This document shows positions 5,131-28,700 of a stretch of 32,000 nt of DNA, in pieces. A program made the position numbers and the translations under genes. How positions within the stretch are numbered: position 1 is the stretch's first letter; the number at the start of each line of letters is the position of its first letter. Source of the stretch: Candidatus Woesearchaeota archaeon (GTDB lineage Archaea > Nanobdellota > Nanobdellia > SCGC-AAA011-G17 > GW2011-AR20). The notes under the pieces are model-generated. The model was not told the DNA's origin, made no database searches, and was given only the letters and a program-made list of their open reading frames with translations. The stretch spans positions 3,115 to 35,114 of the forward strand of contig JACQNJ010000007.1 of NCBI GenBank assembly GCA_016203115.1. The letters run 5' to 3'.

Positions 5131-5724
5131 ATGAATCAAAAAGAAGTCTGGAACAAAATAGCTCCTTCTTGGAACAATTTCAGGAATAAGCCATTAAAAG
5201 AATTAAAAGGTTTAAACTGGAAAAGAGGAAAAATCTTAGATTTGGGCTGCGGAAACTGCAGGAATTTATTGCCTTTTAAAAATTTAGATTGTTATGGTAT
5301 AGATTTCTCAAAAGAGATGCTGAAAGAAGCAAAGAAATTCACAAAAAAACACAATTTCAATGTGAAGTTAAAACAGGCAGAAATAACAAAAGTACCGTTT
5401 AAAGATAACACATTCAATTACATCCTAGCAACAGCAACACTGCATCATTCAAAAAATCCGGAAAAAGCAGTAAAAGAAATCCACAGGGCTTTAAAGATAA
5501 AAGGAGAGGCTTTTATCACAGTATGGAATAAATTGCAACTAAGATTCATCTTAAAAAAACAAGAAACATATATTCCATGGAAACAAAAAGAAAAAACTCT
5601 TCAGAGATATTACAACTTCATAAGTTACTTTCAACTAAAAAAAATGATAAAAAAATACAAGTTTAAAATAATAAGCTCAAAATTTTTGGGAAAAAATATT
5701 ATCTTTAGAATTAAAAAGATGTAG
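5131..5724 (+). CDS. Class I SAM-dependent methyltransferase
   Basis: Motif I ILDLGCGNCRN, acidic motif II GIDFS, post-motif ATLHH. Size and layout are typical of Methyltransf_11-type enzymes. Confidence 0.8.
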   Translation: MNQKEVWNKIAPSWNNFRNKPLKELKGLNWKRGKILDLGCGNCRNLLPFKNLDCYGIDFSKEMLKEAKKFTKKHNFNVKLKQAEITKVPFKDNTFNYILATATLHHSKNPEKAVKEIHRALKIKGEAFITVWNKLQLRFILKKQETYIPWKQKEKTLQRYYNFISYFQLKKMIKKYKFKIISSKFLGKNIIFRIKKM

Positions 5725-7903
5725 AAGAAACAGGCACAATTGAAGACACTAAAAGAGTAAAGACAACAGTAACAATAACTGCTAAGATAAAGTATAATAT
5801 TGAAGATGAAAACAGATTGCTGCTCATAGTGTATTGCTCTTGTAAAGGATCAAGACCATATTCAATTCTAGTTGACAATAAAGACAGTATTATCACAATT
5901 TCAACTAAATACAATCCAATAATCAGCTGCATATAATAGCTTGGAATAATGTTAGAAATGTTGAATATGCCTGCAATAGCATCAAGATTTCCAGGCACAG
6001 CAACATCAGTGCCCTCTGTGTTTGAACCAGAGAGAAGAACAATTAATTGCACAATAATCGTAACAATCATAGTGCTAATACCAACAACAATGCCTGAAAT
6101 AATAGGGCTTAAAAAACTGATTTGGCTTTTCATGCTGGATAGTGTATCATTCAATAAATCCTTCAGTCTTTCATTTACTTGATGAATTCTGTTGACATAA
6201 GTAGAAATGCTGATCAATGACTTGGCAACAATCGTAGTTCCCTTCCTGCTGCTCTCCAATAAAACTTTCATGCTTGTTTCAATTAAACTGCTAGGAAACA
6301 TCATGATTGCGCCATTGCTTCCAAATAAGGCGCTCTTGACACTCATTCCCAGTCTCTGAATGTTATAGCTTACAGCCCTAAAAAAATCACCAGTAGGAGT
6401 TCCTTCCATATTCTGTGCCACATCATTAAAAGCTACTTCAACAGGCACTCCATCTCCAACCCTATTCCCTAGTTGAAACAGGCCCCCTGAAAATTCTTTT
6501 TCCAAATTCCTGATATTATTTCTCAAAGTAATAAGATTTTTACTTCTTAGCCTATAGTAAACTCCAATTCCCAAAGCCAATCCTAAAGGGAGAAACAGCC
6601 CAAATAAAACAGCACCAGGACCAAAAGGACCAAAGCAATTTGAACCAAAACTACAAGATTTTCCTTCAGCAGAGGTCATATTCACAACATCAACACCTAA
6701 AAGGGAAAAGTCATTGCCGCTCAACATCATGAAAAGTGGAATTAAGCCAATAAACCCAATAACTAAAAAAACAAAAAACCCAATCCAGAAAGGATGAAAT
6801 AAAATTTCTTTGCCTCCAAAATTAAAAACGATATAGGAATATTTTCTAAGTCTTGGGTTTTTCTTTAGAATATCTGCTTCGCTATATCCAGTAGGTCTTT
6901 TAGATAAAATGCTAGTTCCATACAAGTACAAAAACACAGGCAAAAACATGTTGTAAAGTAAAAATAAAATAAGCGCTTTAATTGCCCCACTTCCCTGAAC
7001 TAAGCTTCCTAGCAAAGGTAAGATAACCAGTCCTAAAACAGGCAAAACAACACCGAGCATATTCAAGATAGTAATAGGATTTTGCAATTCATGCGCATAA
7101 TGCAGCATCCTCTCATACATCCCATCTAATATCACTTCCAAAGATTTTTCTAATAAACTTATTCTCCTGTCATCGCTCTCTTCCAACAAGCTTCCCTCAA
7201 TTAAATGAAAAGCCTCAACAAATTCTAAGTTATAGTCTCTCCATTGCACTAAATAAAAATCAAGGCTTTCTTTAATAGTAGAATATTTCCCAGTTTCAAC
7301 ATCCCAAAATATTTTCCTCAAATCTAATGACAAAGGATTACCAACATGATCTGCGGCAAACTTCAGGGCATGTTCTAAATTTGATGTATGCCTCATATAC
7401 ATAACAACATAAAGAATACATAAAACCATCTGATTTCCTGCTTTTAATCTCCATCCATTTGCAAGATAATTTGGAATGCCAGTTAAAGGCTTCAACAATA
7501 AAGCTCCTATCAAAAAGAAAATTAAAAACACAATTAAAATAGTAAAACTAAACTCCTCGGTAATAATCCAAATAAGACTGCTCAAAATTAAACCTATAAA
7601 AATAGTAGACAAAGAAATAAAGCTCGCAAAACTTGCAGCACCTTCAGGAGTAATATCTAAGTGGATAGTATCAATACTTTTTTTCAAAGAATCATAATCC
7701 TTATCCTTTACTCTAATACTCAAAACATCTTCAAGATTATTGCATGCATTCTCATACAAATTTTTTCCACTACTCAACGAATCTCTTCTAAAAACCCGGT
7801 ATTCTCTTGAAAAAGTATCAGGATTATAATTTTCTGCATCCTCCATAGAGATATTGCTCTTTAATTTCTTCTGATACTTCCTGATAATATCCTCTTCTCT
7901 CAT
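5711..7903 (-). CDS. Type IV pilus/archaellum-class membrane platform protein (PilC/TadC/FlaJ-like, T2SS-F-type repeats)
   Basis: 730-aa polytopic protein with two cytoplasmic helical domains, each followed by TM bundles. Its start overlaps the ATPase stop by 4 nt. Confidence 0.7.
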   Translation of the reverse strand: MREEDIIRKYQKKLKSNISMEDAENYNPDTFSREYRVFRRDSLSSGKNLYENACNNLEDVLSIRVKDKDYDSLKKSIDTIHLDITPEGAASFASFISLSTIFIGLILSSLIWIITEEFSFTILIVFLIFFLIGALLLKPLTGIPNYLANGWRLKAGNQMVLCILYVVMYMRHTSNLEHALKFAADHVGNPLSLDLRKIFWDVETGKYSTIKESLDFYLVQWRDYNLEFVEAFHLIEGSLLEESDDRRISLLEKSLEVILDGMYERMLHYAHELQNPITILNMLGVVLPVLGLVILPLLGSLVQGSGAIKALILFLLYNMFLPVFLYLYGTSILSKRPTGYSEADILKKNPRLRKYSYIVFNFGGKEILFHPFWIGFFVFLVIGFIGLIPLFMMLSGNDFSLLGVDVVNMTSAEGKSCSFGSNCFGPFGPGAVLFGLFLPLGLALGIGVYYRLRSKNLITLRNNIRNLEKEFSGGLFQLGNRVGDGVPVEVAFNDVAQNMEGTPTGDFFRAVSYNIQRLGMSVKSALFGSNGAIMMFPSSLIETSMKVLLESSRKGTTIVAKSLISISTYVNRIHQVNERLKDLLNDTLSSMKSQISFLSPIISGIVVGISTMIVTIIVQLIVLLSGSNTEGTDVAVPGNLDAIAGIFNISNIIPSYYMQLIIGLYLVEIVIILSLLSTRIEYGLDPLQEQYTMSSNLFSSSILYFILAVIVTVVFTLLVSSIVPVSSTSF

Positions 7904-21968: not shown

Positions 21969-22316
21969 ATGAACGAATCATCAATTTTTAAACTTTCATT
22001 AGCTATCTCACTTACAGGAATACTTCTTCTCCTAGTAATAGTAGAAACCACAGAAATACAGGAGATTGGAATAGAAGATATTAGTAATAAAAAAGAAGAT
22101 GAAACTGTAAGGATAGTGGGAAAAATAGAAAGTATTAAAGAAACCCCAGGATTATATATTCTAAACATAGAAGACAAGAGTGGAAAAATAAATGTGATAG
22201 TCTTCAAAGAAGATAAGCTTAACATAAGTAAGGGTAATCAAGCCGATATAGAAGGAACAGTAAAAGAATATCAGAACAAAAAAGAATTAATAGCCAAGAG
22301 AATAAGCATAATATAA
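21969..22316 (+). CDS. Membrane-anchored OB-fold (tRNA_anti-like nucleic-acid-binding) protein
   Basis: N-terminal TM segment LSLAISLTGILLLLVIV. OB pattern VRIVGKIESIKE..LYILNIEDKSGKINVIVFKE..ADIEGTVKEYQNKKELI. Confidence 0.65.
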   Translation: MNESSIFKLSLAISLTGILLLLVIVETTEIQEIGIEDISNKKEDETVRIVGKIESIKETPGLYILNIEDKSGKINVIVFKEDKLNISKGNQADIEGTVKEYQNKKELIAKRISII

Positions 22317-23512
22317 TGCTTGAGCTGCTTGTAGTAATAATATTGGGAATTCTCTTAGGGATTATATGCGGCATTATCCCAGGTCTTCACCCAAATGCAG
22401 TAAGTGTTATTCTAATATCACTCTCTCCCTTGTTATTAAATTACTTATCCCCTGTGGCATTAGCCGCGTTAATAGTCACTGTAGCAGTTTCTAACTCAAT
22501 TATAGATGCACTTCCATCAATTTACCTAGGTGCTCCGGATGCAGATAGCAATGCAATGAACGTCTTGCCAGGTCACAAAATGCTGCTAGAAGGAAAAGGG
22601 CATGAAGCAATAGTGTTAACAGTAACAGGTTCTCTTCTCGGCTTGCTCTTTGCAATAGTTGCAATCCCTCCACTAGTCATTCTCCTAAAAAGTGGATATC
22701 CAATCATTAGGAGCTACTTGGCGTTTATCATTATAGGCGTAATGGTGTTTCTTATATTAAGAGAAAAAAATAAATTATGGGCACTGATTATCTTCCTCCT
22801 CTCTGGTGTTCTAGGAATCGCAACAATAAATGCACAGATAAAAGAACCCCTATTTCCTTTATTTTCGGGCCTGTTTGGAATAAGTACGTTAATCCTAGGC
22901 TTAAAAAATAAAGTAAAAATACCAAAACAAGCACATGAAGAGATAAAAATCAAAAAAAGGAATGTGTTTAAGGCAGTGCTAACAAGCTTAATATCAGGAA
23001 GTATAGTCTCCATGTTGCCAGGATTAGGGAGTGCACAAGGAGCAATTCTAGGAAGTAGTATTGTTAAAGAAAAAGATTCAAAAAATTTTCTTATAATGGT
23101 GGGAGGAATAAGTACTGTAGACTTTATAATAAGTTTTGTGTCTATTTACACATTAGACAAAGCAAGAAATGGTTCAATAGTAGCCATATCAAAGATACTA
23201 GAATCATTTACCATTAATAATTTAATTCTTTTTATAGCAATCGCACTTATCGTAGGAGGAGTTTCTGCAATAATCACTATTAAACTATCAAAAGTTTCAA
23301 GTGAATACATTCCAAAGATAAACTACCAAGTTCTAAGTATAATCATAATTCTAGGAATAACAACTGCAGTAGGAATAATCTCAGGATTGATAGGGTTACT
23401 TGTATTAATTACAGCAATAAGTCTAGGAATGCTCCCAGACCTAAAGGAAACAGGAAAAAGTCATTTAATGGGTTCTCTAATACTTCCAGTAATCCTATAT
23501 TTTCTATTATGA
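22316..23512 (+). CDS. TctA/DUF112-family polytopic membrane transporter
   Basis: The N-terminus GILLGIICGIIPGLHPNAVS is characteristic. The protein has about 10 or more TM helices. The TAATG overlap with the OB-fold gene indicates co-translation. Confidence 0.7.
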   Translation: MLELLVVIILGILLGIICGIIPGLHPNAVSVILISLSPLLLNYLSPVALAALIVTVAVSNSIIDALPSIYLGAPDADSNAMNVLPGHKMLLEGKGHEAIVLTVTGSLLGLLFAIVAIPPLVILLKSGYPIIRSYLAFIIIGVMVFLILREKNKLWALIIFLLSGVLGIATINAQIKEPLFPLFSGLFGISTLILGLKNKVKIPKQAHEEIKIKKRNVFKAVLTSLISGSIVSMLPGLGSAQGAILGSSIVKEKDSKNFLIMVGGISTVDFIISFVSIYTLDKARNGSIVAISKILESFTINNLILFIAIALIVGGVSAIITIKLSKVSSEYIPKINYQVLSIIIILGITTAVGIISGLIGLLVLITAISLGMLPDLKETGKSHLMGSLILPVILYFLL

Positions 23513-23573: not shown

Positions 23574-24170
23574 TTAGTATCTTCCACCAAGGTAAACACT
23601 TTTTATTTTACTATGTTTTAAAATATCCTTTCCTCCTTTTAGAGCAATTTTTCCATCCTCTAATAAATAAGTCTTATCAGCTATCTGTATTGCTTTCTTT
23701 GCATTTTGCTCAACAATTAAAATAGAAATTCCATCTTCCTTTAATTTCAAAATCATTTTAAACAATTCTTTTTGCAATTTAGGACTTAAACCTAAAGAAG
23801 GCTCATCCAACATTAACAAAAAAGGGCTCTGCATTAATGCCATCCCTAAAGCTAGCATTTGTTGCTGCCCGCCACTTAAAGTAAAGGCTAAATCCTTCTT
23901 CTTTTCTCTTAATACTGGAAATCTTTTATAAACTGAATTTAAATTTCTTTTAATTATTTCTTTATCTTTAATTAATTCTGCTCCAATTTCTAAGTTCTCT
24001 TCTACAGTTAAAGAGCTAAAGTTTATTCTTCCTTGATTAACATAACTTATCCCTAAGTTTAATAGCTCATGTGTTTTTAATTTTGTAATATCTTTATTCT
24101 TGAAAATAATTTTCCCTTTTTTTACATCAGCAATATTAAAAACAGACTTTATAACTGTACTTTTCCCCAT
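23574..24170 (-). pseudogene. LivF-like ABC transporter ATP-binding protein, 5'-truncated remnant
   Basis: Signature LSGGQQQML, Walker B LLMLDEPS and the LivF/G-type ILIVEQN are present. The ORF begins MGKST, in the middle of Walker A. About 35-40 N-terminal residues are missing and an in-frame TAG lies 8 codons upstream. No permease or binding-protein gene is nearby. Confidence 0.7.
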
Positions 24171-25539
24171 CCATTTGTTGCCATTTTGATTCTATTTCTT
24201 CAGGCATAACTCTACTTACAGAATACATCCAACTATCTAGGTAATCACGGCCAACACTATGGACTACCCAGTATAACTCCGCATCCATATCCTTAATTGT
24301 AGGTTCCAAAGTTTCATAATCTGTTTTTCCACCATTAATCCTAACTGCCCTATGTAAGATTTTTAGATTAATATAAGCTGCAATAGCAGTTCTTGTATCT
24401 CCAAATCTATCGACCAACGCAGAAAGTCTAGCTTCTCCTAAAAAATTACTCACATCTGTATGATATTCTCTATTCCTCAGAAGGTATAGTTTAACTATCT
24501 CTTGTTTTTCTTGAAGACTTAATCTTTCTTGAGTTTCATTGACCGTATTTTCTAATTCTTTTCTCTCAGAGTCTAAATGAAAATAACCCCCGACTAAACT
24601 TCCCAAACTCAAAAGAGAGGCAGTAATAATTCCCCATCTTCTCACTCTTACAATTGGTCTAGATTTCTCATACTCTCTAACCGCTTTCTCTAATCTTATA
24701 GAAAGTTCTTCACCATTTTGTATTCTTCCATCTTCATCACATAAACAATTTTTTAACAAACCTCTAAAAGCCTTAGGAACGCTCTTAGCATTTCCAACCC
24801 TTTGGTTTATAACTGCATTCCAAGAACCTCTGTCTAAATAAAGAGTTTCAATAAATTGTTCTAAATTTTTCATTCCAAATTCTCTTTCAAAGACATATTC
24901 TCCTGTAAACAGTTTATACAAAACAGAACCAAAAGACCATATATCAGAAGCAACTTCAGCTTCTCCATTTCCAAATCTCTCGGGCGCTCTAACTCCTAAA
25001 AAGCCCACATTTCTTCTATCATGGTCTCCAACAGTAGATGCACCAAAGTCAGATATTTTTACTTCTCTATCTGTACTATAACCAATATTAGCAGGTTGCA
25101 AGTCTGAGTGTGCTCTTCCTAATACCTTATGCATTCCTCTCAAACCAGAAGCTAATCCTCTACTTATCTGAACAATTTCCTCAACAGTAGGTGTATTATT
25201 TTCTAAATAATTAGATAAAAATCTATCAATTGGTTCTTCTCTTAAAAACGGAGTTCCATCATCTGCATATTCAACAGAACCATATGCCACATTTGGCAAG
25301 GATTTAGTATTTCCTCCAAGAGATTCTTTAGCCCATAATTCTCCATCTGTCAACCTTCTCTCCTCTATCTGTCTCCTTGCTAATTCACTGGGGTCAAGAA
25401 ATTTGAATGCATATTCTGCCATTGTTGTCCTATTCCTATACAAATATACAGGAGTCCATTCTCCTCTTCCCATAAGTCTAATTAATTCATATCCTTTAAC
25501 TTCAGGAGGTACAAATTCCTTTCTAGTTCTTTCTGTCAT
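24136..25539 (-). CDS. Membrane-anchored Hanks-type Ser/Thr protein kinase with atypical catalytic loop and unknown C-terminal domain
   Basis: G-loop GRGEWTPVY, AFK (K46), catalytic loop HSDLQPAN (144-151), DFG (164-166), APE (185-187), DIWSFG. TM segment WGIITASLLSLGSLVGGYF (302-320) followed by a tail of about 145 aa. Confidence 0.85.
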   Translation of the reverse strand: MTERTRKEFVPPEVKGYELIRLMGRGEWTPVYLYRNRTTMAEYAFKFLDPSELARRQIEERRLTDGELWAKESLGGNTKSLPNVAYGSVEYADDGTPFLREEPIDRFLSNYLENNTPTVEEIVQISRGLASGLRGMHKVLGRAHSDLQPANIGYSTDREVKISDFGASTVGDHDRRNVGFLGVRAPERFGNGEAEVASDIWSFGSVLYKLFTGEYVFEREFGMKNLEQFIETLYLDRGSWNAVINQRVGNAKSVPKAFRGLLKNCLCDEDGRIQNGEELSIRLEKAVREYEKSRPIVRVRRWGIITASLLSLGSLVGGYFHLDSERKELENTVNETQERLSLQEKQEIVKLYLLRNREYHTDVSNFLGEARLSALVDRFGDTRTAIAAYINLKILHRAVRINGGKTDYETLEPTIKDMDAELYWVVHSVGRDYLDSWMYSVSRVMPEEIESKWQQMDGEKYSYKVCF

Positions 25540-25666
25540 TTTCTAAAAATTTTTTTATAGAATACTCTATTACATGACTTTTATTTCTAAAAATTCCCTC
25601 CTCCAGGACTTCTTCTATCTTCTTTAAAGTCTCTTCTTCAATAGAGATGCTAATCTTAGTTTTCAT
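25523..25666 (-). CDS. Ribbon-helix-helix (CopG/Arc/MetJ-type) small DNA-binding protein, 47 aa
   Basis: Not in the ORF track. Hand translation: MKTKISISIEEETLKKIEEVLEEGIFRNKSHVIEYSIKKFLENDRKN*. The pattern is beta-strand (KISISI), helix (LKKIEEVL), then RNKSHVIEYSIKKFL. Its 3' end overlaps the kinase ATG by 17 nt. A TTATAAAG box lies about 26 nt upstream. Confidence 0.6.
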   Translation of the reverse strand: MKTKISISIEEETLKKIEEVLEEGIFRNKSHVIEYSIKKFLENDRKN

Positions 25667-25688
25667 AAAAAGTAGGAAGAAATCATAC

Positions 25689-25696
25689 TTTATAAG
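25689..25696 (-). promoter_or_regulatory. TATA box of the RHH-kinase cassette
   Basis: TTATAAAG on the minus strand, centred about 26 nt upstream of the RHH ATG at 25666. Confidence 0.4.
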
Positions 25697-25735
25697 CCTT
25701 ACTATTTGTCATTTCTTTAGAGTAGTAACTCATAA

Positions 25736-28700
25736 TTAGTACCAGCTTCCTAGTCCAATTTGTCTTTCTTTATCTTTTCCAAATACACTTTCAATTCTCA
25801 TTTTTGTTAGTTCTAAACTCTGTTTTAGATAATTTGGTAATTCATATTTTTGTGCTAAACTTATACTTGGCTCTAAATACTTAACAACACTTCCCTCTGA
25901 AACAGTAAACAACAATCTCCCTCTGCATTTAACACAATGACCAAGCAAGGGGGGCCTTCTGTATTTTTCATTACAGCTGACACATCTAAATTCTTGTGTA
26001 GAAAATTTTCTTAAATTTCCTTTAATATCTCTAATAAAATGCCTGTCAATCACCAATCTTGCAACATCCATTTCATCAACAGCCCTAATTTTCTCAGCAA
26101 TATCTAATTGACCAAAAACTTTCTGCTGCATATCTGGGATGCTCTTATATGCGCTGCAAACAACACCGGAATTTATATTGCTTACATCATGTGTAAACAT
26201 CCATCCTGTTTGTTCATTTTCTTTTCCTAACCTATCTCTCATCTGCTCAACCTTGATTTCCCATGGCATTTTATATTCCAAAGCAGATTTATATAATTCT
26301 AAAGGATATTTTGCTGTTATATCGACATCAAAAACCATATCATCTATTTCACTAGGAATTAATGTAGAGCTCAAAACTAATGGTGCATCTTGTGTTGCTC
26401 CCCTGTGTGCAGGTAAATATACTCTTGAAAAATTAATCAGAGCATCTAATAATAACATGAATGCCACTTCATCACCATCTGCATCTCTCCTAACAGCGCA
26501 ATGCAACATAGGATGAGCATAAAATCCTTGTGTATTGCTAAACCCAATGATCCTGCATATTATCCCTGCAGAAATATGTGGAGCAATTGCCATAATCAAA
26601 TGACCTACTAAATCTTCTCGCTCATCTACATTATAAAAAGGTTCAAGATTATACATGTATTTTAACATCCCATCAATGAACTTACATGATCTTAACAGTA
26701 TATCATCACCACCTTCATCTAAAGACTCCTTGCATGCAGGGATGATAACATCTTGTGGCTTTATCTCAATGATTTGGGTATCTTTCTCTAATGGATTCCC
26801 ATAAATATCATATCCATACCCCAGTTCTTTTAATTTTTCAATCTTTGTTCCTATCTCAACAGGTTTAAAATGTGTTATCACTAATTCTGTAGCATCATAT
26901 CTTATTGTTCCGTCTTTATTGACATATACATCATTTGCTGCTCTTAATATCCCTTTAATTAAATTTTCAGGAATATGCTCCTCACTGCTTAAACCTCTTA
27001 TGCCCTTGATTAATTCGGGAAGTTCATTTATTCCTAATTTATCCTGGGCTTGTTTAAAATAATCTTTTATTAATATCTCTCTTCGCTTATACTTCTTTAC
27101 TGTATCTACATGCCCACATTTTTCAGTTTCCTTCTTGCAGATATAACAGTAAGATTGTTTTTCAGTTTTCACATTACATTTAGCACATATAGGGTATATT
27201 GAGTCAGTATTGCAATTATTGCACACATATAGGGGAAATTCTGCAGTAACTTTACCAACCCCAATTGCACTTTGAAAAGATCTCATTCTCCCGCCTTCTT
27301 CACCTACTGGAAATAAGCAATGTGGCTTTCCTGTCATCTTTCTCAGTTTTGCTTTTTCAGGCCTTCCCATTCTTGCTCCGATGAATGTGCCAGATTTATC
27401 TCTCTGAGTAATATGGCAAATTTTATTTACAGTATCAAGTCCATTTTCTAATACTTTATCTTCTTTAAAATCTAGACTATTCAAAGAAAGAACAAGTGCT
27501 TTTGCATAATCTCCCTCAACAACAACATGTTCTTTTCCAACAAATTTATGTGGAACTCCCAATAGCTCAAGAACTCTCTTAGGATCAGTATCCATTAAGT
27601 CAGAATTAATATCATAGACAAAGGGAAGTACTATTTTGTCTTCATTGATTGTTCCTTGTCTTACCCATGAAACAAAACTATTAAACTGATCCTTGTTTAT
27701 GTCCTTCCAATGATAAGTGAGCCTTGGCACAAAAGGAACATCTAGTTTTTCAGAAATCTTAAGCGCATTTGAAAAAGACACATTAAATGGATCTAAAAGG
27801 ATTCTTTGAATTTTAACATCGACAAATTCGCTTGCCTTTTCAATATTTCCATTGAATTTCTTTTCAATTGCTTTTTCAATCTCTCTTGCCCACCATTCCT
27901 CATTATAACCACAAGGAACCAGCATATGCGCTCTGTTAAAAAAATCACCGTAACTGATTAAAATATCTCCTAGAAATAAAATTTCCTCAACATCATCTGC
28001 ATATTTTTTTGCTTCTTCAGCATCATTTAATAACATCACACTCTGATTCTTCAGTTTAATAATTGGGCCCTCTATAGTATCGCATAAACTTAATGCACTT
28101 GCCTTCCCCGGCCTCTCCATTTTTATTTGAGTCCCTACAGCAATATAATTATTTAGTACAAACATAGTGGCAGGGTGAATTGCATTAGAACTTAATCCTG
28201 TATTTCTTGCTCTTCCATATCTTAGTCTAAATCCTCCAGTTCTTAATGGATGAGTTAAAACAGGTCTTCCTGCAACAAGATCCTTTATGAATGTATAGTC
28301 TGGTTTTATCCTTGCACCATCATCAACTTTTTTTACTTCTTCTCTTGCTTTTAACTTCTTTTGGATCTTCAAAAATTCTTCTAAAAATTTCCAATGCCCT
28401 AAATCCATATCTTTTCCCCACTTATCCAGCTGCTTCAATAACTTCGGAGCTTTCTGACATAGACCCTCTCCTAAAACTAGACAGGGACCATTTCTTATTT
28501 TATTAGTCTCGACTCGTTCCAAATCCTTGTAGTTGCTTACATCATATTTCTCACTCGGATCTCCATCTATTTGTACTGCTAAATTTGAAACCATAAACTC
28601 AAGTTCCTCTGCACTTGGAAAATATTGTAAATTAGTTACTTTTTCATGATAGTCCGTTAGTTCAGTTGTAAACCTTTTTATTTCTCTTTCATCAGGATCA

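What the first reader, a model, noticed from the sequence alone, without database searches (positions are those of the whole stretch)
24136..25666. Unannotated RHH gene translationally overlapped with a membrane-anchored, catalytic-loop-variant Hanks kinase: a possible two-gene regulatory or toxin-like cassette
Seen in sequence: a 47-aa ORF (25523-25666) that the ORF track misses has a textbook ribbon-helix-helix pattern, and its last 17 nt overlap the kinase ATG. The kinase keeps the G-loop, the AFK lysine, DFG, APE and DIWSFG. Its catalytic loop reads HSDLQPAN instead of HRDLKPxN, so R is replaced by S and the catalytic-loop Lys by Gln. One TM helix (302-320) and a tail of about 145 aa with no motif I recognise follow the kinase domain. 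The kinase is R/G/E-rich in a K/I/N-rich genome. The cassette sits between the polD operon and a decapitated ABC gene, which looks like an insertion. Inference: a small RHH repressor coupled to an enzyme is the classic antitoxin/toxin or autoregulated-module grammar. HipBA is the kinase precedent, but HipA has a different fold and HipB is an HTH protein. I know of no described RHH + Hanks-kinase module in archaea.
Basis: partly seen in the sequence, partly recalled or inferred. Interest (0 to 1): 0.7.

Follow-up and report, generated by a model that had tools for sequence, protein, structure and literature searches.

The report
Self-regulated membrane kinase operon, partner deleted
A tiny DNA-binding protein gene and a membrane-anchored protein kinase gene form a real, conserved two-gene operon in this Woesearchaeota genome; it looks like an ordinary self-regulated signalling unit, not a toxin-antitoxin pair, and a recent deletion has removed its usual third partner gene.

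Summary
The sequence observations hold. A 47-aa CopG-like RHH gene (25523-25666, minus strand) overlaps by 17 nt a 467-aa Hanks-type kinase (24136-25539) with loop HSDLQPAN, one TM helix and an all-alpha tail.

The RHH is a real gene: dN/dS is 0.06 against a 92%-identical relative. It sits upstream with a 4-17 nt overlap in 6 of 10 kinase lineages examined. A palindrome (AAGTAGGA-N5-TCCTACTT type) lies between TATA box and ATG. It recurs at RHH promoters even where no kinase follows, so the RHH is most likely an autorepressor.

The toxin-antitoxin and insertion readings fail:
- The RHH has no toxin-binding extension and also heads unrelated operons.
- Four kinase lineages lack it.
- The locus is syntenic with relatives.
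- The decapitated ABC gene results from a deletion, estimated at 2.4 kb. It clipped the last 30 kinase codons and, by comparison with relatives, removed a convergent ~300-aa AbrB-domain gene (next to the kinase in 9 of 10 lineages) plus a binding-protein gene.

Loss of the catalytic-loop Lys is a family trait: K in 30, another residue in 26 of 56 top hits. Q occurs only in this lineage.

Verdict: an undescribed but unexotic archaeal signalling module.

The parts
25689..25696 (-). Archaeal TATA box CTTATAAA. It lies 22 nt upstream of the RHH ATG, so the transcript is probably leaderless or nearly so.
   Evidence: Sequence. TATA-like elements sit at the same place in the RHH promoters of relatives. 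The 69-nt intergenic region is 66/69 identical to L003, although dS of the flanking genes is 0.2-1.1.
25670..25690 (.). Candidate operator: imperfect palindrome AAGTATGA-tttct-TCCTACTT between the TATA box and the start codon.
   Evidence: Inverted repeat I2. The pattern AAGTAGGA-N5-TCCTACTT with <=3 mismatches occurs six times in 116 kb of archaeal loci. Five of the six lie within 35 nt upstream of RHH start codons: window, L003, L110, L007 and L109.
25523..25666 (-). 47-aa CopG-like ribbon-helix-helix gene (GenBank MBI4158796.1, hypothetical protein), the predicted autorepressor.
   Evidence: dN/dS is 0.06 against L003, with 8 synonymous and 3 non-synonymous changes.
25523..25539 (-). 17-nt overlap of the RHH stop with the kinase start, implying translational coupling.
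   Evidence: Overlaps of 4-17 nt occur in L003, L001, L007, L010 and L110.
24670..25491 (-). Cytoplasmic Hanks-type kinase domain, residues 17-290. It retains K46, D146, N151, D164 (DFG) and APE. The catalytic loop HSDLQPAN is encoded at 25087-25110.
   Evidence: Pfam Pkinase E=2e-23; motif positions; invariant columns in the family alignment.
24580..24636 (-). Single transmembrane helix, residues 302-320. The flanks are net +3 before and net -3 after, so the topology is predicted N-in, C-out.
   Evidence: Sequence. Topology is inferred from the positive-inside rule. The helix is conserved in the family alignment.
24169..24579 (-). Extracytoplasmic all-alpha tail domain, residues 321-457, with the family motif FGDxRTAIAAY...GGKTDYETLEP.
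   Evidence: AlphaFold model of the tail of the closest relative (P0001): all-helical, mean pLDDT 67. No Pfam, PDB or Foldseek match.
24136..24168 (-). Ten novel C-terminal codons plus the stop, read out of frame from the ABC gene. They replace 30 ancestral residues.
24167..24169 (.). Deletion junction. Homology to L003 (kinase side) ends at 24169 and homology to L105 (ABC side) starts at 24167. The parental sequences share AATGG.
   Evidence: The same junction is present at 100% identity in two Logan assemblies.
23574..24170 (-). Remnant of a LivF-like ABC ATPase, 198 of 235 residues, lacking the first 37 residues and part of Walker A.
   Evidence: dN/dS is 0.018 against the intact L105 copy, so the truncation is recent.

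Best explanation
This is an autoregulated two-gene signalling operon, not a toxin-antitoxin pair.

Proposed mechanism:
- A promoter with a TATA box at 25696-25689 drives a probably leaderless bicistronic mRNA.
- The first product is a 47-aa CopG-like RHH protein. It is inferred to bind as a dimer or dimer of dimers to the palindrome at 25690-25670, between the TATA box and the start codon, and so repress its own operon.
- The kinase is translated by coupling through the 17-nt overlap.
- The kinase is a receptor-type membrane Ser/Thr kinase: an N-terminal cytoplasmic catalytic domain, one TM helix and an extracytoplasmic all-alpha domain. It belongs to an uncharacterised archaeal family.
- The family's most constant neighbour is a convergent ~300-aa AbrB/SpoVT-domain protein, often followed by Liv-type transporter genes. 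I infer that this regulator is the kinase's substrate or working partner.
- In this genome a recent deletion, estimated at about 2.4 kb, removed that partner, a binding-protein gene, the last 30 kinase codons and the first 37 ABC codons.

Shown here: gene reality, conservation of the overlap, the palindrome, the synteny and the deletion.
Inferred: DNA binding by the RHH, kinase activity, and the AbrB-domain protein as the target.
For: RHH gene:
- It is real and constrained: dN/dS 0.06.
- It is CopG-like over its full length.
- An RHH lies upstream with a 4-17 nt overlap in the window, L003, L001, L007, L010 and L110.

Operator:
- The palindrome with <=3 mismatches is found at the RHH promoters of the window, L003, L110, L007 and L109, with only one other hit in 116 kb.
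- L109's RHH is not followed by a kinase, so the palindrome tracks the RHH.
- An unbiased 4-mer test gave 61 of 2000 shuffles reaching the observed maximum.
- The promoter is 66/69 identical to L003.

Kinase:
- The domain is a Hanks-type kinase.
- K46, D146, N151, DFG, the Pro-Glu of APE, and D199/W201/G204 of the DIWSFG motif are invariant in the family alignment.
- dN/dS is 0.19 for the domain and 0.32 for the tail.
- The exhaustive profile search gave 208 representatives at E<1e-30. Among the 44 I read, most share the kinase, TM and tail architecture.

Partner gene:
- The AbrB-domain gene is convergent downstream in 9 of 10 lineages.
- Its N-terminal domain matches PF04014 in 34 of 34 members.

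Deletion: shown.

Precedent: Hanks kinases phosphorylate AbrB in Bacillus subtilis (PMC6213207).
Against: - No experiment or structure shows that the RHH binds the palindrome.
- The palindrome consensus was derived from the window site, so part of its fit is post hoc. L001 and L010 do not match it.
- Catalytic activity is unproven. The catalytic-loop Lys is Gln and the HRD Arg is Ser.
- The AlphaFold model of the full protein was poor, pLDDT 56.
- The kinase-AbrB link rests on adjacency only, and the genes are convergent, so they are not co-transcribed.
- AbrB-family proteins (more than 230 hits) appear to outnumber kinase clusters, so many probably work without this kinase.
- Gene context was obtained for only 10 kinase lineages, a small sample of the family.
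Confidence: 0.6

Rival explanations
1. Type II toxin-antitoxin-like cassette. The kinase would be a growth-arresting toxin, and the RHH both its antitoxin and the operon's repressor.
For: Small RHH gene first, larger enzyme second, overlapping stop and start, and a palindrome at the promoter. Weak RHH similarity to ParD and to the RHH antitoxin Rv0298.
Against: - The RHH is only 44-62 aa across the family, the size of CopG, with no C-terminal neutralising segment.
- Close RHH homologues head unrelated genes: a 497-aa Walker-A protein in L107 and small unknown proteins in L109.
- Kinases in L004, L005, L013 and L113 have no RHH and no remnant of one.
- The kinase has a TM helix and an outside domain like receptor kinases.
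- The locus is syntenic and compositionally native.
- PADLOC finds nothing for the RHH.
Confidence: 0.05
2. Decaying relic. After the deletion removed its partner and clipped its C-terminus, the kinase (already carrying Q for K) is a non-functional pseudokinase on its way to loss.
For: The partner gene and 30 C-terminal residues are lost. Outgroup polarisation gives 27 window-derived against 14 relative-derived amino-acid changes. Q at the catalytic-loop Lys position is seen only in this lineage.
Against: - The ORF is intact and all other catalytic residues are kept.
- dN/dS is 0.19-0.32.
- The relative P0001 has the same Q together with an intact partner gene, so Q predates the deletion.
- The breakpoint lies after the last invariant tail residue, and family member P0179 is naturally 469 aa.
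- The 27 against 14 difference is only marginal, roughly p=0.06 by my own binomial estimate, not run with a tool, and mostly involves conservative changes.
Confidence: 0.15
3. Anti-virus defence kinase of the PD-T4-6, Stk2 or mad6 kind, with the RHH as its transcriptional switch.
For: PADLOC kinase-domain hits: mad6 at E=8e-28 and PD-T4-6 at E=3e-21. NCBIfam MADS6 scores 54 bits.
Against: - The scores are those of generic kinase-domain similarity: MADS6 54 bits against a cut-off of 460, and PD-T4-6 74 bits against 83.5 bits for Pfam Pkinase.
- There are no other defence genes nearby.
- Synteny is stable next to polD and transporter genes.
- The TM-plus-tail architecture is conserved and the family has a constant AbrB-domain neighbour.
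Confidence: 0.05

Closest known systems
CopG (pMV158) and other minimal RHH autorepressors (Pfam RHH_1, PF01402)
   Same: About 45 residues. The strand-helix-helix pattern aligns end to end (hhalign 86%). It is the first gene of the operon it is predicted to repress. The operator is palindromic and overlaps the core promoter.
   Different: The host is archaeal and chromosomal. The operator lies between the TATA box and the start codon of a probably leaderless mRNA. The cargo is a membrane kinase or, in relatives, other genes, rather than a plasmid replication gene. The window protein scores just below the Pfam cut-off.
Bacterial receptor-type Hanks kinases (PknB, PrkC, Stk1)
   Same: N-terminal cytoplasmic kinase domain, single TM helix and an extracytoplasmic C-terminal domain. 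There is a weak NCBIfam match to the PknB_PASTA kinase domain.
   Different: There are no PASTA repeats; the tail is an unrelated all-alpha domain. The kinase is non-RD (HSD or HGD in the family). The catalytic-loop Lys is replaced by Q here, and by H, N, A, S, T, I or R in 26 of 56 top family hits. No adjacent PP2C phosphatase was seen in the window.
HipBA
   Same: A small DNA-binding protein gene precedes a kinase gene in one operon.
   Different: HipA has a different kinase fold, and only Pkinase-type Pfam models match here. HipB is an HTH protein, whereas this regulator is an RHH. The kinase here is membrane-anchored, and the pairing is facultative.
Kinases with a non-lysine catalytic loop: Haspin (HRDLHWGN) and tyrosine kinases (HRDLAARN). 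From my own knowledge, not tested here.
   Same: Family members read HGDLHPxN, like Haspin, or HGDxAPKN, with the basic residue two positions later as in tyrosine kinases.
   Different: There is no evidence of common descent with either. The window protein has Q and no compensating basic residue at +2 (HSDLQPAN).
AbrB phosphorylation by PrkC, PrkD and YabT in Bacillus subtilis
   Same: A Hanks kinase functionally linked to an AbrB-fold DNA-binding regulator (PMC6213207).
   Different: The link here is only a conserved convergent gene pair. The archaeal protein has an extra ~250-aa C-terminal domain. JGI labels it 'phosphate uptake regulator', which I could not verify. The gene is missing from this window.

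Membership tests
Hanks-type / eukaryotic-like protein kinase (PF00069) | Profile score above the curated cut-off over the whole domain | tested here: met
   83.5 bits against 31.7; residues 17-269 match profile positions 1-247 of 263.
Hanks-type / eukaryotic-like protein kinase (PF00069) | ATP-anchoring Lys (VAIK), catalytic Asp and Asn, DFG Asp, APE, and subdomain IX DxWxxG | tested here: met
   K46, D146, N151, D164, APE 185-187 and DIWSFG 199-204 are present. In the 7-sequence family alignment K46, D146, N151, D164-F165-G166, P186-E187, and D199/W201/G204 are invariant; the Ala of APE is not.
Hanks-type / eukaryotic-like protein kinase (PF00069) | Canonical catalytic loop HRDLKxxN (RD arginine and catalytic-loop lysine) | tested here: not met
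   The loop is HSDLQPAN. In 56 top family hits the Lys position is K 30, H 11, A 4, N 3, S 3, Q 2, T 1, I 1, R 1, and the Arg position is mostly G.
Hanks-type / eukaryotic-like protein kinase (PF00069) | Phosphotransfer activity | not testable with these tools
   Needs an in vitro kinase assay.
RHH_1 / CopG family (PF01402) | Profile match | tested here: inconclusive
   The window protein scores 19.0 bits against a cut-off of 20.5, E=1.3e-3. 20 of 30 family members match at E<=0.01, best 3.4e-6. hhalign against CopG gives 86%, E=6e-6, over 43 of 45 columns. A family profile against PDB sequences gives only E~0.4-0.5 for CopG and Rv0298.
RHH_1 / CopG family (PF01402) | Symmetric operator at its own promoter | tested here: met
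   Palindrome at 25670-25690, recurring at four further RHH promoters. Binding itself was not tested.
Type II toxin-antitoxin system | The antitoxin has a toxin-neutralising segment in addition to the DNA-binding domain | tested here: not met
   The protein is 47 aa and aligns end to end with the 45-aa CopG. Family members are 44-62 aa.
Type II toxin-antitoxin system | Obligate pairing of the two genes | tested here: not met
   The RHH heads other genes in L107 and L109. The kinase has no RHH in L004, L005, L013 and L113.
Type II toxin-antitoxin system | Growth arrest by the toxin, rescued by the antitoxin | not testable with these tools
   Needs heterologous expression.
HipBA | HipA-type kinase fold and an HTH HipB | tested here: not met
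   At E<=0.1 only Pkinase-type Pfam families match the kinase and only RHH families match the small protein.
Defence kinases (PD-T4-6, mad6, Stk2) | Specific, not merely kinase-domain, profile match plus a defence-island context | tested here: not met
   NCBIfam MADS6 scores 54 bits against a cut-off of 460. PADLOC PD-T4-6 at 74 bits is below the generic Pkinase score. The neighbours are polD, transporter genes and an AbrB-domain gene.
PknB-like PASTA receptor kinases | Extracellular PASTA repeats | tested here: not met
   No Pfam domain in the tail. The tail of the closest relative is modelled as all-alpha.

The most novel reading that the evidence does not exclude
The RHH, the receptor kinase with a lysine-less catalytic loop, and the convergent AbrB-domain protein form a three-part phospho-signalling system in Woesearchaeota and related archaea, whose small genomes are generally thought to encode few signalling systems (my general knowledge, not checked here). 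In this reading the kinase senses an external cue through its all-alpha domain. It then phosphorylates the AbrB-domain regulator, and possibly the invariant Ser residues on the DNA-reading strand of its own RHH repressor. This would control the adjacent Liv-type transporter genes and the kinase's own level. It would be a functional counterpart of a two-component system built from Hanks-kinase parts.
Probability: 0.2. Interest if true: 0.65.

Novelty: new variant of a known kind. Interest (0 to 1): 0.4.

Why it matters
Little has been described about signalling in DPANN archaea such as Woesearchaeota: my literature searches found nothing on this module.

This locus defines a compact, recurring module:
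- a minimal RHH with a recognisable operator;
- a receptor-type kinase family in which the 'essential' catalytic-loop lysine is freely replaced;
- a constant AbrB-domain neighbour.

Each element gives a directly testable hypothesis about sensing and gene control in these organisms. The family is also a natural experiment on how dispensable the catalytic-loop lysine is. For genome annotation, it shows that the 'RHH plus enzyme' gene order does not by itself indicate a toxin-antitoxin system. The window also documents a fresh microhomology-mediated deletion that created a chimeric kinase C-terminus and a headless ABC gene, both of which are annotated as ordinary genes in GenBank.

Tried and rejected
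1. Compositional island or insertion. G+C of the kinase equals that of polD, and the order polD-RHH-kinase is shared with L003. Rejected.
2. Assembly chimera at the kinase/ABC junction. The same junction is present at 100% identity in two Logan assemblies, and only 5 nt of microhomology are shared, too little in my judgement to cause a k-mer misjoin. I judged this unlikely, though the read sets may come from the same sample as the MAG.
3. Tail as a degenerate lytic-transglycosylase (SLT) domain. The idea came from the FGD..ALAAY(N) motif and from Foldseek hits to Cj0843 at E~5-9. The tail profile against PDB sequences gave no SLT hit, only a spurious influenza HA2 match at E=0.015. Rejected.
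4. AlphaFold model of the whole kinase. It reached pLDDT 56 with the catalytic region below 50, so I did not use it for fold search.
5. PhoU identity of the C-terminal part of the AbrB-domain protein. There was no Pfam, NCBIfam or PDB sequence hit. The JGI label 'phosphate uptake regulator' stays unverified.
6. RHH remnants upstream of kinases that lack an RHH: none found.
7. A second copy of the AbrB-domain gene in the window: none found.
8. Rfam scan of the window: no match.
9. Collection scans with kinase patterns returned mostly generic bacterial kinases. Only L013 and L025 were family members.
10. The word-indexed protein search understated the family with 6 members. The exhaustive profile search corrected this.
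Full report
**What is there**

On the minus strand the window reads as follows:
- polD small and large subunits (30727-25736);
- a 69-nt spacer with a TATA box, CTTATAAA, at 25696-25689;
- a 47-aa ORF (25666-25523);
- a 467-aa ORF (25539-24136) that starts 17 nt before the small ORF ends;
- a 198-aa ABC ATPase ORF (24170-23574).

The contig is a GenBank MAG of 'Candidatus Woesearchaeota archaeon'. There the kinase is MBI4158795.1. The small ORF is annotated as hypothetical protein HY500_00885, MBI4158796.1.

Pfam Pkinase matches at E=2e-23.

The protein is richer in Arg and Glu than eleven other window genes: R 9.0% against 4.5%, E 10.3% against 6.6%. Its G+C is ordinary, 0.35.

**The small ORF is a real CopG-like RHH gene**

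- Against the closest relative (L003, 92% nucleotide identity) it shows 8 synonymous and 3 non-synonymous changes, dN/dS 0.06.
- A search found 27 homologues of 44-62 aa, all of the form MKTKISISIEEETL..G.FRNKSHVIEY.
- The window protein alone falls just under the Pfam cut-off (19.0 against 20.5 bits). However, 20 of 30 family members match RHH_1 at E<=0.01, best 3.4e-6.
- The family profile aligns over 43 of 45 columns with CopG: hhalign probability 86%, E=6e-6.
- A profile search of PDB sequences was only weakly suggestive: CopG E 0.5 and the RHH antitoxin Rv0298 E 0.4.

**The kinase family**

The word-indexed search found six relatives. The exhaustive profile search found 208 representatives at E<1e-30. 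Among the 44 I read, most share the kinase domain, one TM helix and a tail.

There are two tail types. The window's type carries the motif FGDxKTAxAAYLNP...GGKTDY. The tail of the closest relative (P0001) is modelled as all-helical at moderate confidence, pLDDT 67. It has no Pfam, PDB-sequence or Foldseek match.

The flanks of the TM helix carry net +3 before and net -3 after. By the positive-inside rule the kinase domain is therefore cytoplasmic and the tail outside (inference).

In the family alignment K46, D146, N151, DFG, the Pro-Glu of APE, and D199/W201/G204 of the DIWSFG motif are invariant. The catalytic-loop Lys position is not conserved. Among 56 top hits it is K 30, H 11, A 4, N 3, S 3, Q 2, T 1, I 1 and R 1, and the HRD Arg is usually Gly.

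Q occurs only in the window and its 89%-identical relative P0001. So the unusual loop is a trait of this archaeal family, not a peculiarity of this gene. Whether such members are active cannot be decided here.

**Gene context**

I obtained context for ten kinase lineages:
- An RHH gene of this family lies directly upstream with a 4-17 nt overlap in six: the window, L003, L001, L007, L010 and L110 (translations).
- Four have none and no remnant: L004, L005, L013 and L113.
- Nine of the ten, all except the window, have a convergent gene of about 300 aa immediately downstream of the kinase.

The N-terminus of that downstream gene is an AbrB/SpoVT/MazE-type domain; 34 of 34 members match PF04014, best 2e-9. 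Its C-terminal 250 residues match nothing in Pfam, NCBIfam or PDB sequences. JGI labels the family 'phosphate uptake regulator', which I could not verify.

This pair persists in a G+C-rich MAG labelled Methanosarcinales (L013), whose kinase has the canonical HGDLKPEN loop and no RHH. In L110 and L113 the AbrB-domain gene is followed by a Liv-type binding-protein gene, and in L113 by a permease as well.

Conversely, RHH homologues of 59-76% identity head other operons. L107 has a 497-aa Walker-A protein downstream, and L109 has two small unknown proteins.

**The junction with the ABC gene is a deletion, not an insertion**

- L003 is collinear with the window from the end of polD to 24169 and then continues into 30 more kinase codons and the AbrB-domain gene.
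- L105, from the same sample as L003, carries the intact 235-aa LivF-like gene preceded by a binding-protein gene. It matches the window from 24167 onward.
- The two parental sequences share only AATGG at the crossover.
- The window therefore lost the last 30 kinase residues (replaced by 10 out-of-frame residues), the AbrB-domain gene, at least the binding-protein gene, and the first 37 ABC residues. By analogy with L110 this is about 2.4 kb.
- The junction is reproduced at 100% identity in two Logan assemblies.
- The ABC remnant shows dN/dS 0.018 against the intact copy, so the event is recent.
- The breakpoint lies just after the last invariant residue of the tail, and one family member is naturally 469 aa. 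The kinase may therefore still work.
- Outgroup polarisation gives 27 window-derived against 14 relative-derived substitutions. This is at most a hint of relaxed constraint.

**Candidate operator**

Between the TATA box and the ATG lies the imperfect palindrome AAGTATGA-tttct-TCCTACTT, at 25690-25670.

I scanned 116 kb of archaeal loci for AAGTAGGA-N(3-8)-TCCTACTT with at most three mismatches. This gave six sites. Five of them lie in the 35 nt before RHH start codons: the window, L003, L110, L007 and L109.

L109's RHH has no kinase downstream, so the palindrome goes with the RHH. The RHH-less kinases in L004 and L005 have a different palindrome.

Other evidence on the operator:
- An unbiased 4-mer test on six promoters was modest: 61 of 2000 shuffles reached the observed maximum.
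- CTAC occurs in 5 of 6 RHH promoters against 3 of 98 control upstream regions.
- The consensus was derived from the window's own site, so part of the fit is post hoc.
- L001 and L010 do not match it.
- The spacer is 66/69 identical to L003, and the whole stretch from TATA box to ATG is identical, while dS of the neighbouring genes is 0.2-1.1.

**Interpretation**

The best-supported reading is an autoregulated signalling operon. A CopG-like repressor sits on its own core promoter, and a receptor-type membrane kinase is translated by coupling. The kinase's usual working partner, possibly its substrate, is the neighbouring AbrB-domain regulator. Hanks kinases are known to phosphorylate AbrB in Bacillus subtilis (PMC6213207). 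In this genome that partner has just been deleted.

DNA binding, kinase activity and the kinase-AbrB link are all inferences.

**Rival readings**

- Toxin-antitoxin. This fails on three tested criteria: there is no neutralising segment, the pairing is not obligate, and the 'toxin' has receptor-like architecture.
- Defence kinase. This rests only on generic kinase-domain similarity.
- Decaying relic. This cannot be excluded. However, the same Q loop occurs in the relative with an intact partner gene, and dN/dS is well below 1.

**Novelty**

I found no paper describing an RHH plus Hanks-kinase module or a kinase plus AbrB-domain pair in archaea. The parts are ordinary. The combination, and the kinase family with its variable catalytic loop, appear to be undescribed.

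I rate it a new variant of a known kind, of moderate interest.

Noticed in passing
window 21969-23512 (+ strand); L110 1231-2770: The overlapping OB-fold and TctA gene pair lies after the ABC remnant in the window. In L110 it lies between polD and the RHH. The kinase block has therefore been rearranged relative to this pair within the clade.
   Followed up: partly
L013 2235-5509: The G+C-rich MAG labelled Methanosarcinales carries two tandem membrane kinases of 581 and 510 aa. Both have canonical Lys loops, and they sit in front of the convergent AbrB-domain gene.
   Followed up: no
P0002 (L001 5001-6887), tail: The tail motif FGDxKTAxAAY...GGKTDYxTLEP is duplicated in tandem in this 628-aa relative, which suggests a repeat unit of about 40 residues.
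   Followed up: no
L107 2555-2577, 5125-5147, 5982-6004: The 20-mer AAGAAAAATGGATCCTAGTT recurs three times, each about 40-65 nt after the start of one of three consecutive genes around the RHH homologue. These are probably paralogous N-termini. A palindrome-like site also lies inside a gene at 5715-5738.
   Followed up: no
L004 2060-2153; L005 4900-5000: Kinase genes without an RHH have a different, perfect palindrome upstream of their TATA box (ATCACTT-CT-AAGTGAT), and AAGCTTAA...CTTAAGCT downstream. This suggests control by another regulator.
   Followed up: no
window 23574-24170: The headless ABC ORF is annotated in GenBank as an ordinary 'ATP-binding cassette domain-containing protein'. 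It also carries Arg to Met in the conserved LGRAL stretch after the signature motif.
   Followed up: partly
window 24170-25833 vs L003; 23577-24167 vs L105: Synonymous divergence is uneven across adjacent genes: kinase 0.22, RHH 0.43-0.48, ABC 0.66 and polD end 1.08. L003 and L105 may come from different strains, or the kinase gene may have been exchanged more recently.
   Followed up: no
P0211 (458 aa): One family representative has the kinase N-terminus fused to an unrelated C-terminus (…GEFFITQSRPITTLK). I did not scan it against any family library. It is possibly a chimeric gene call.
   Followed up: no
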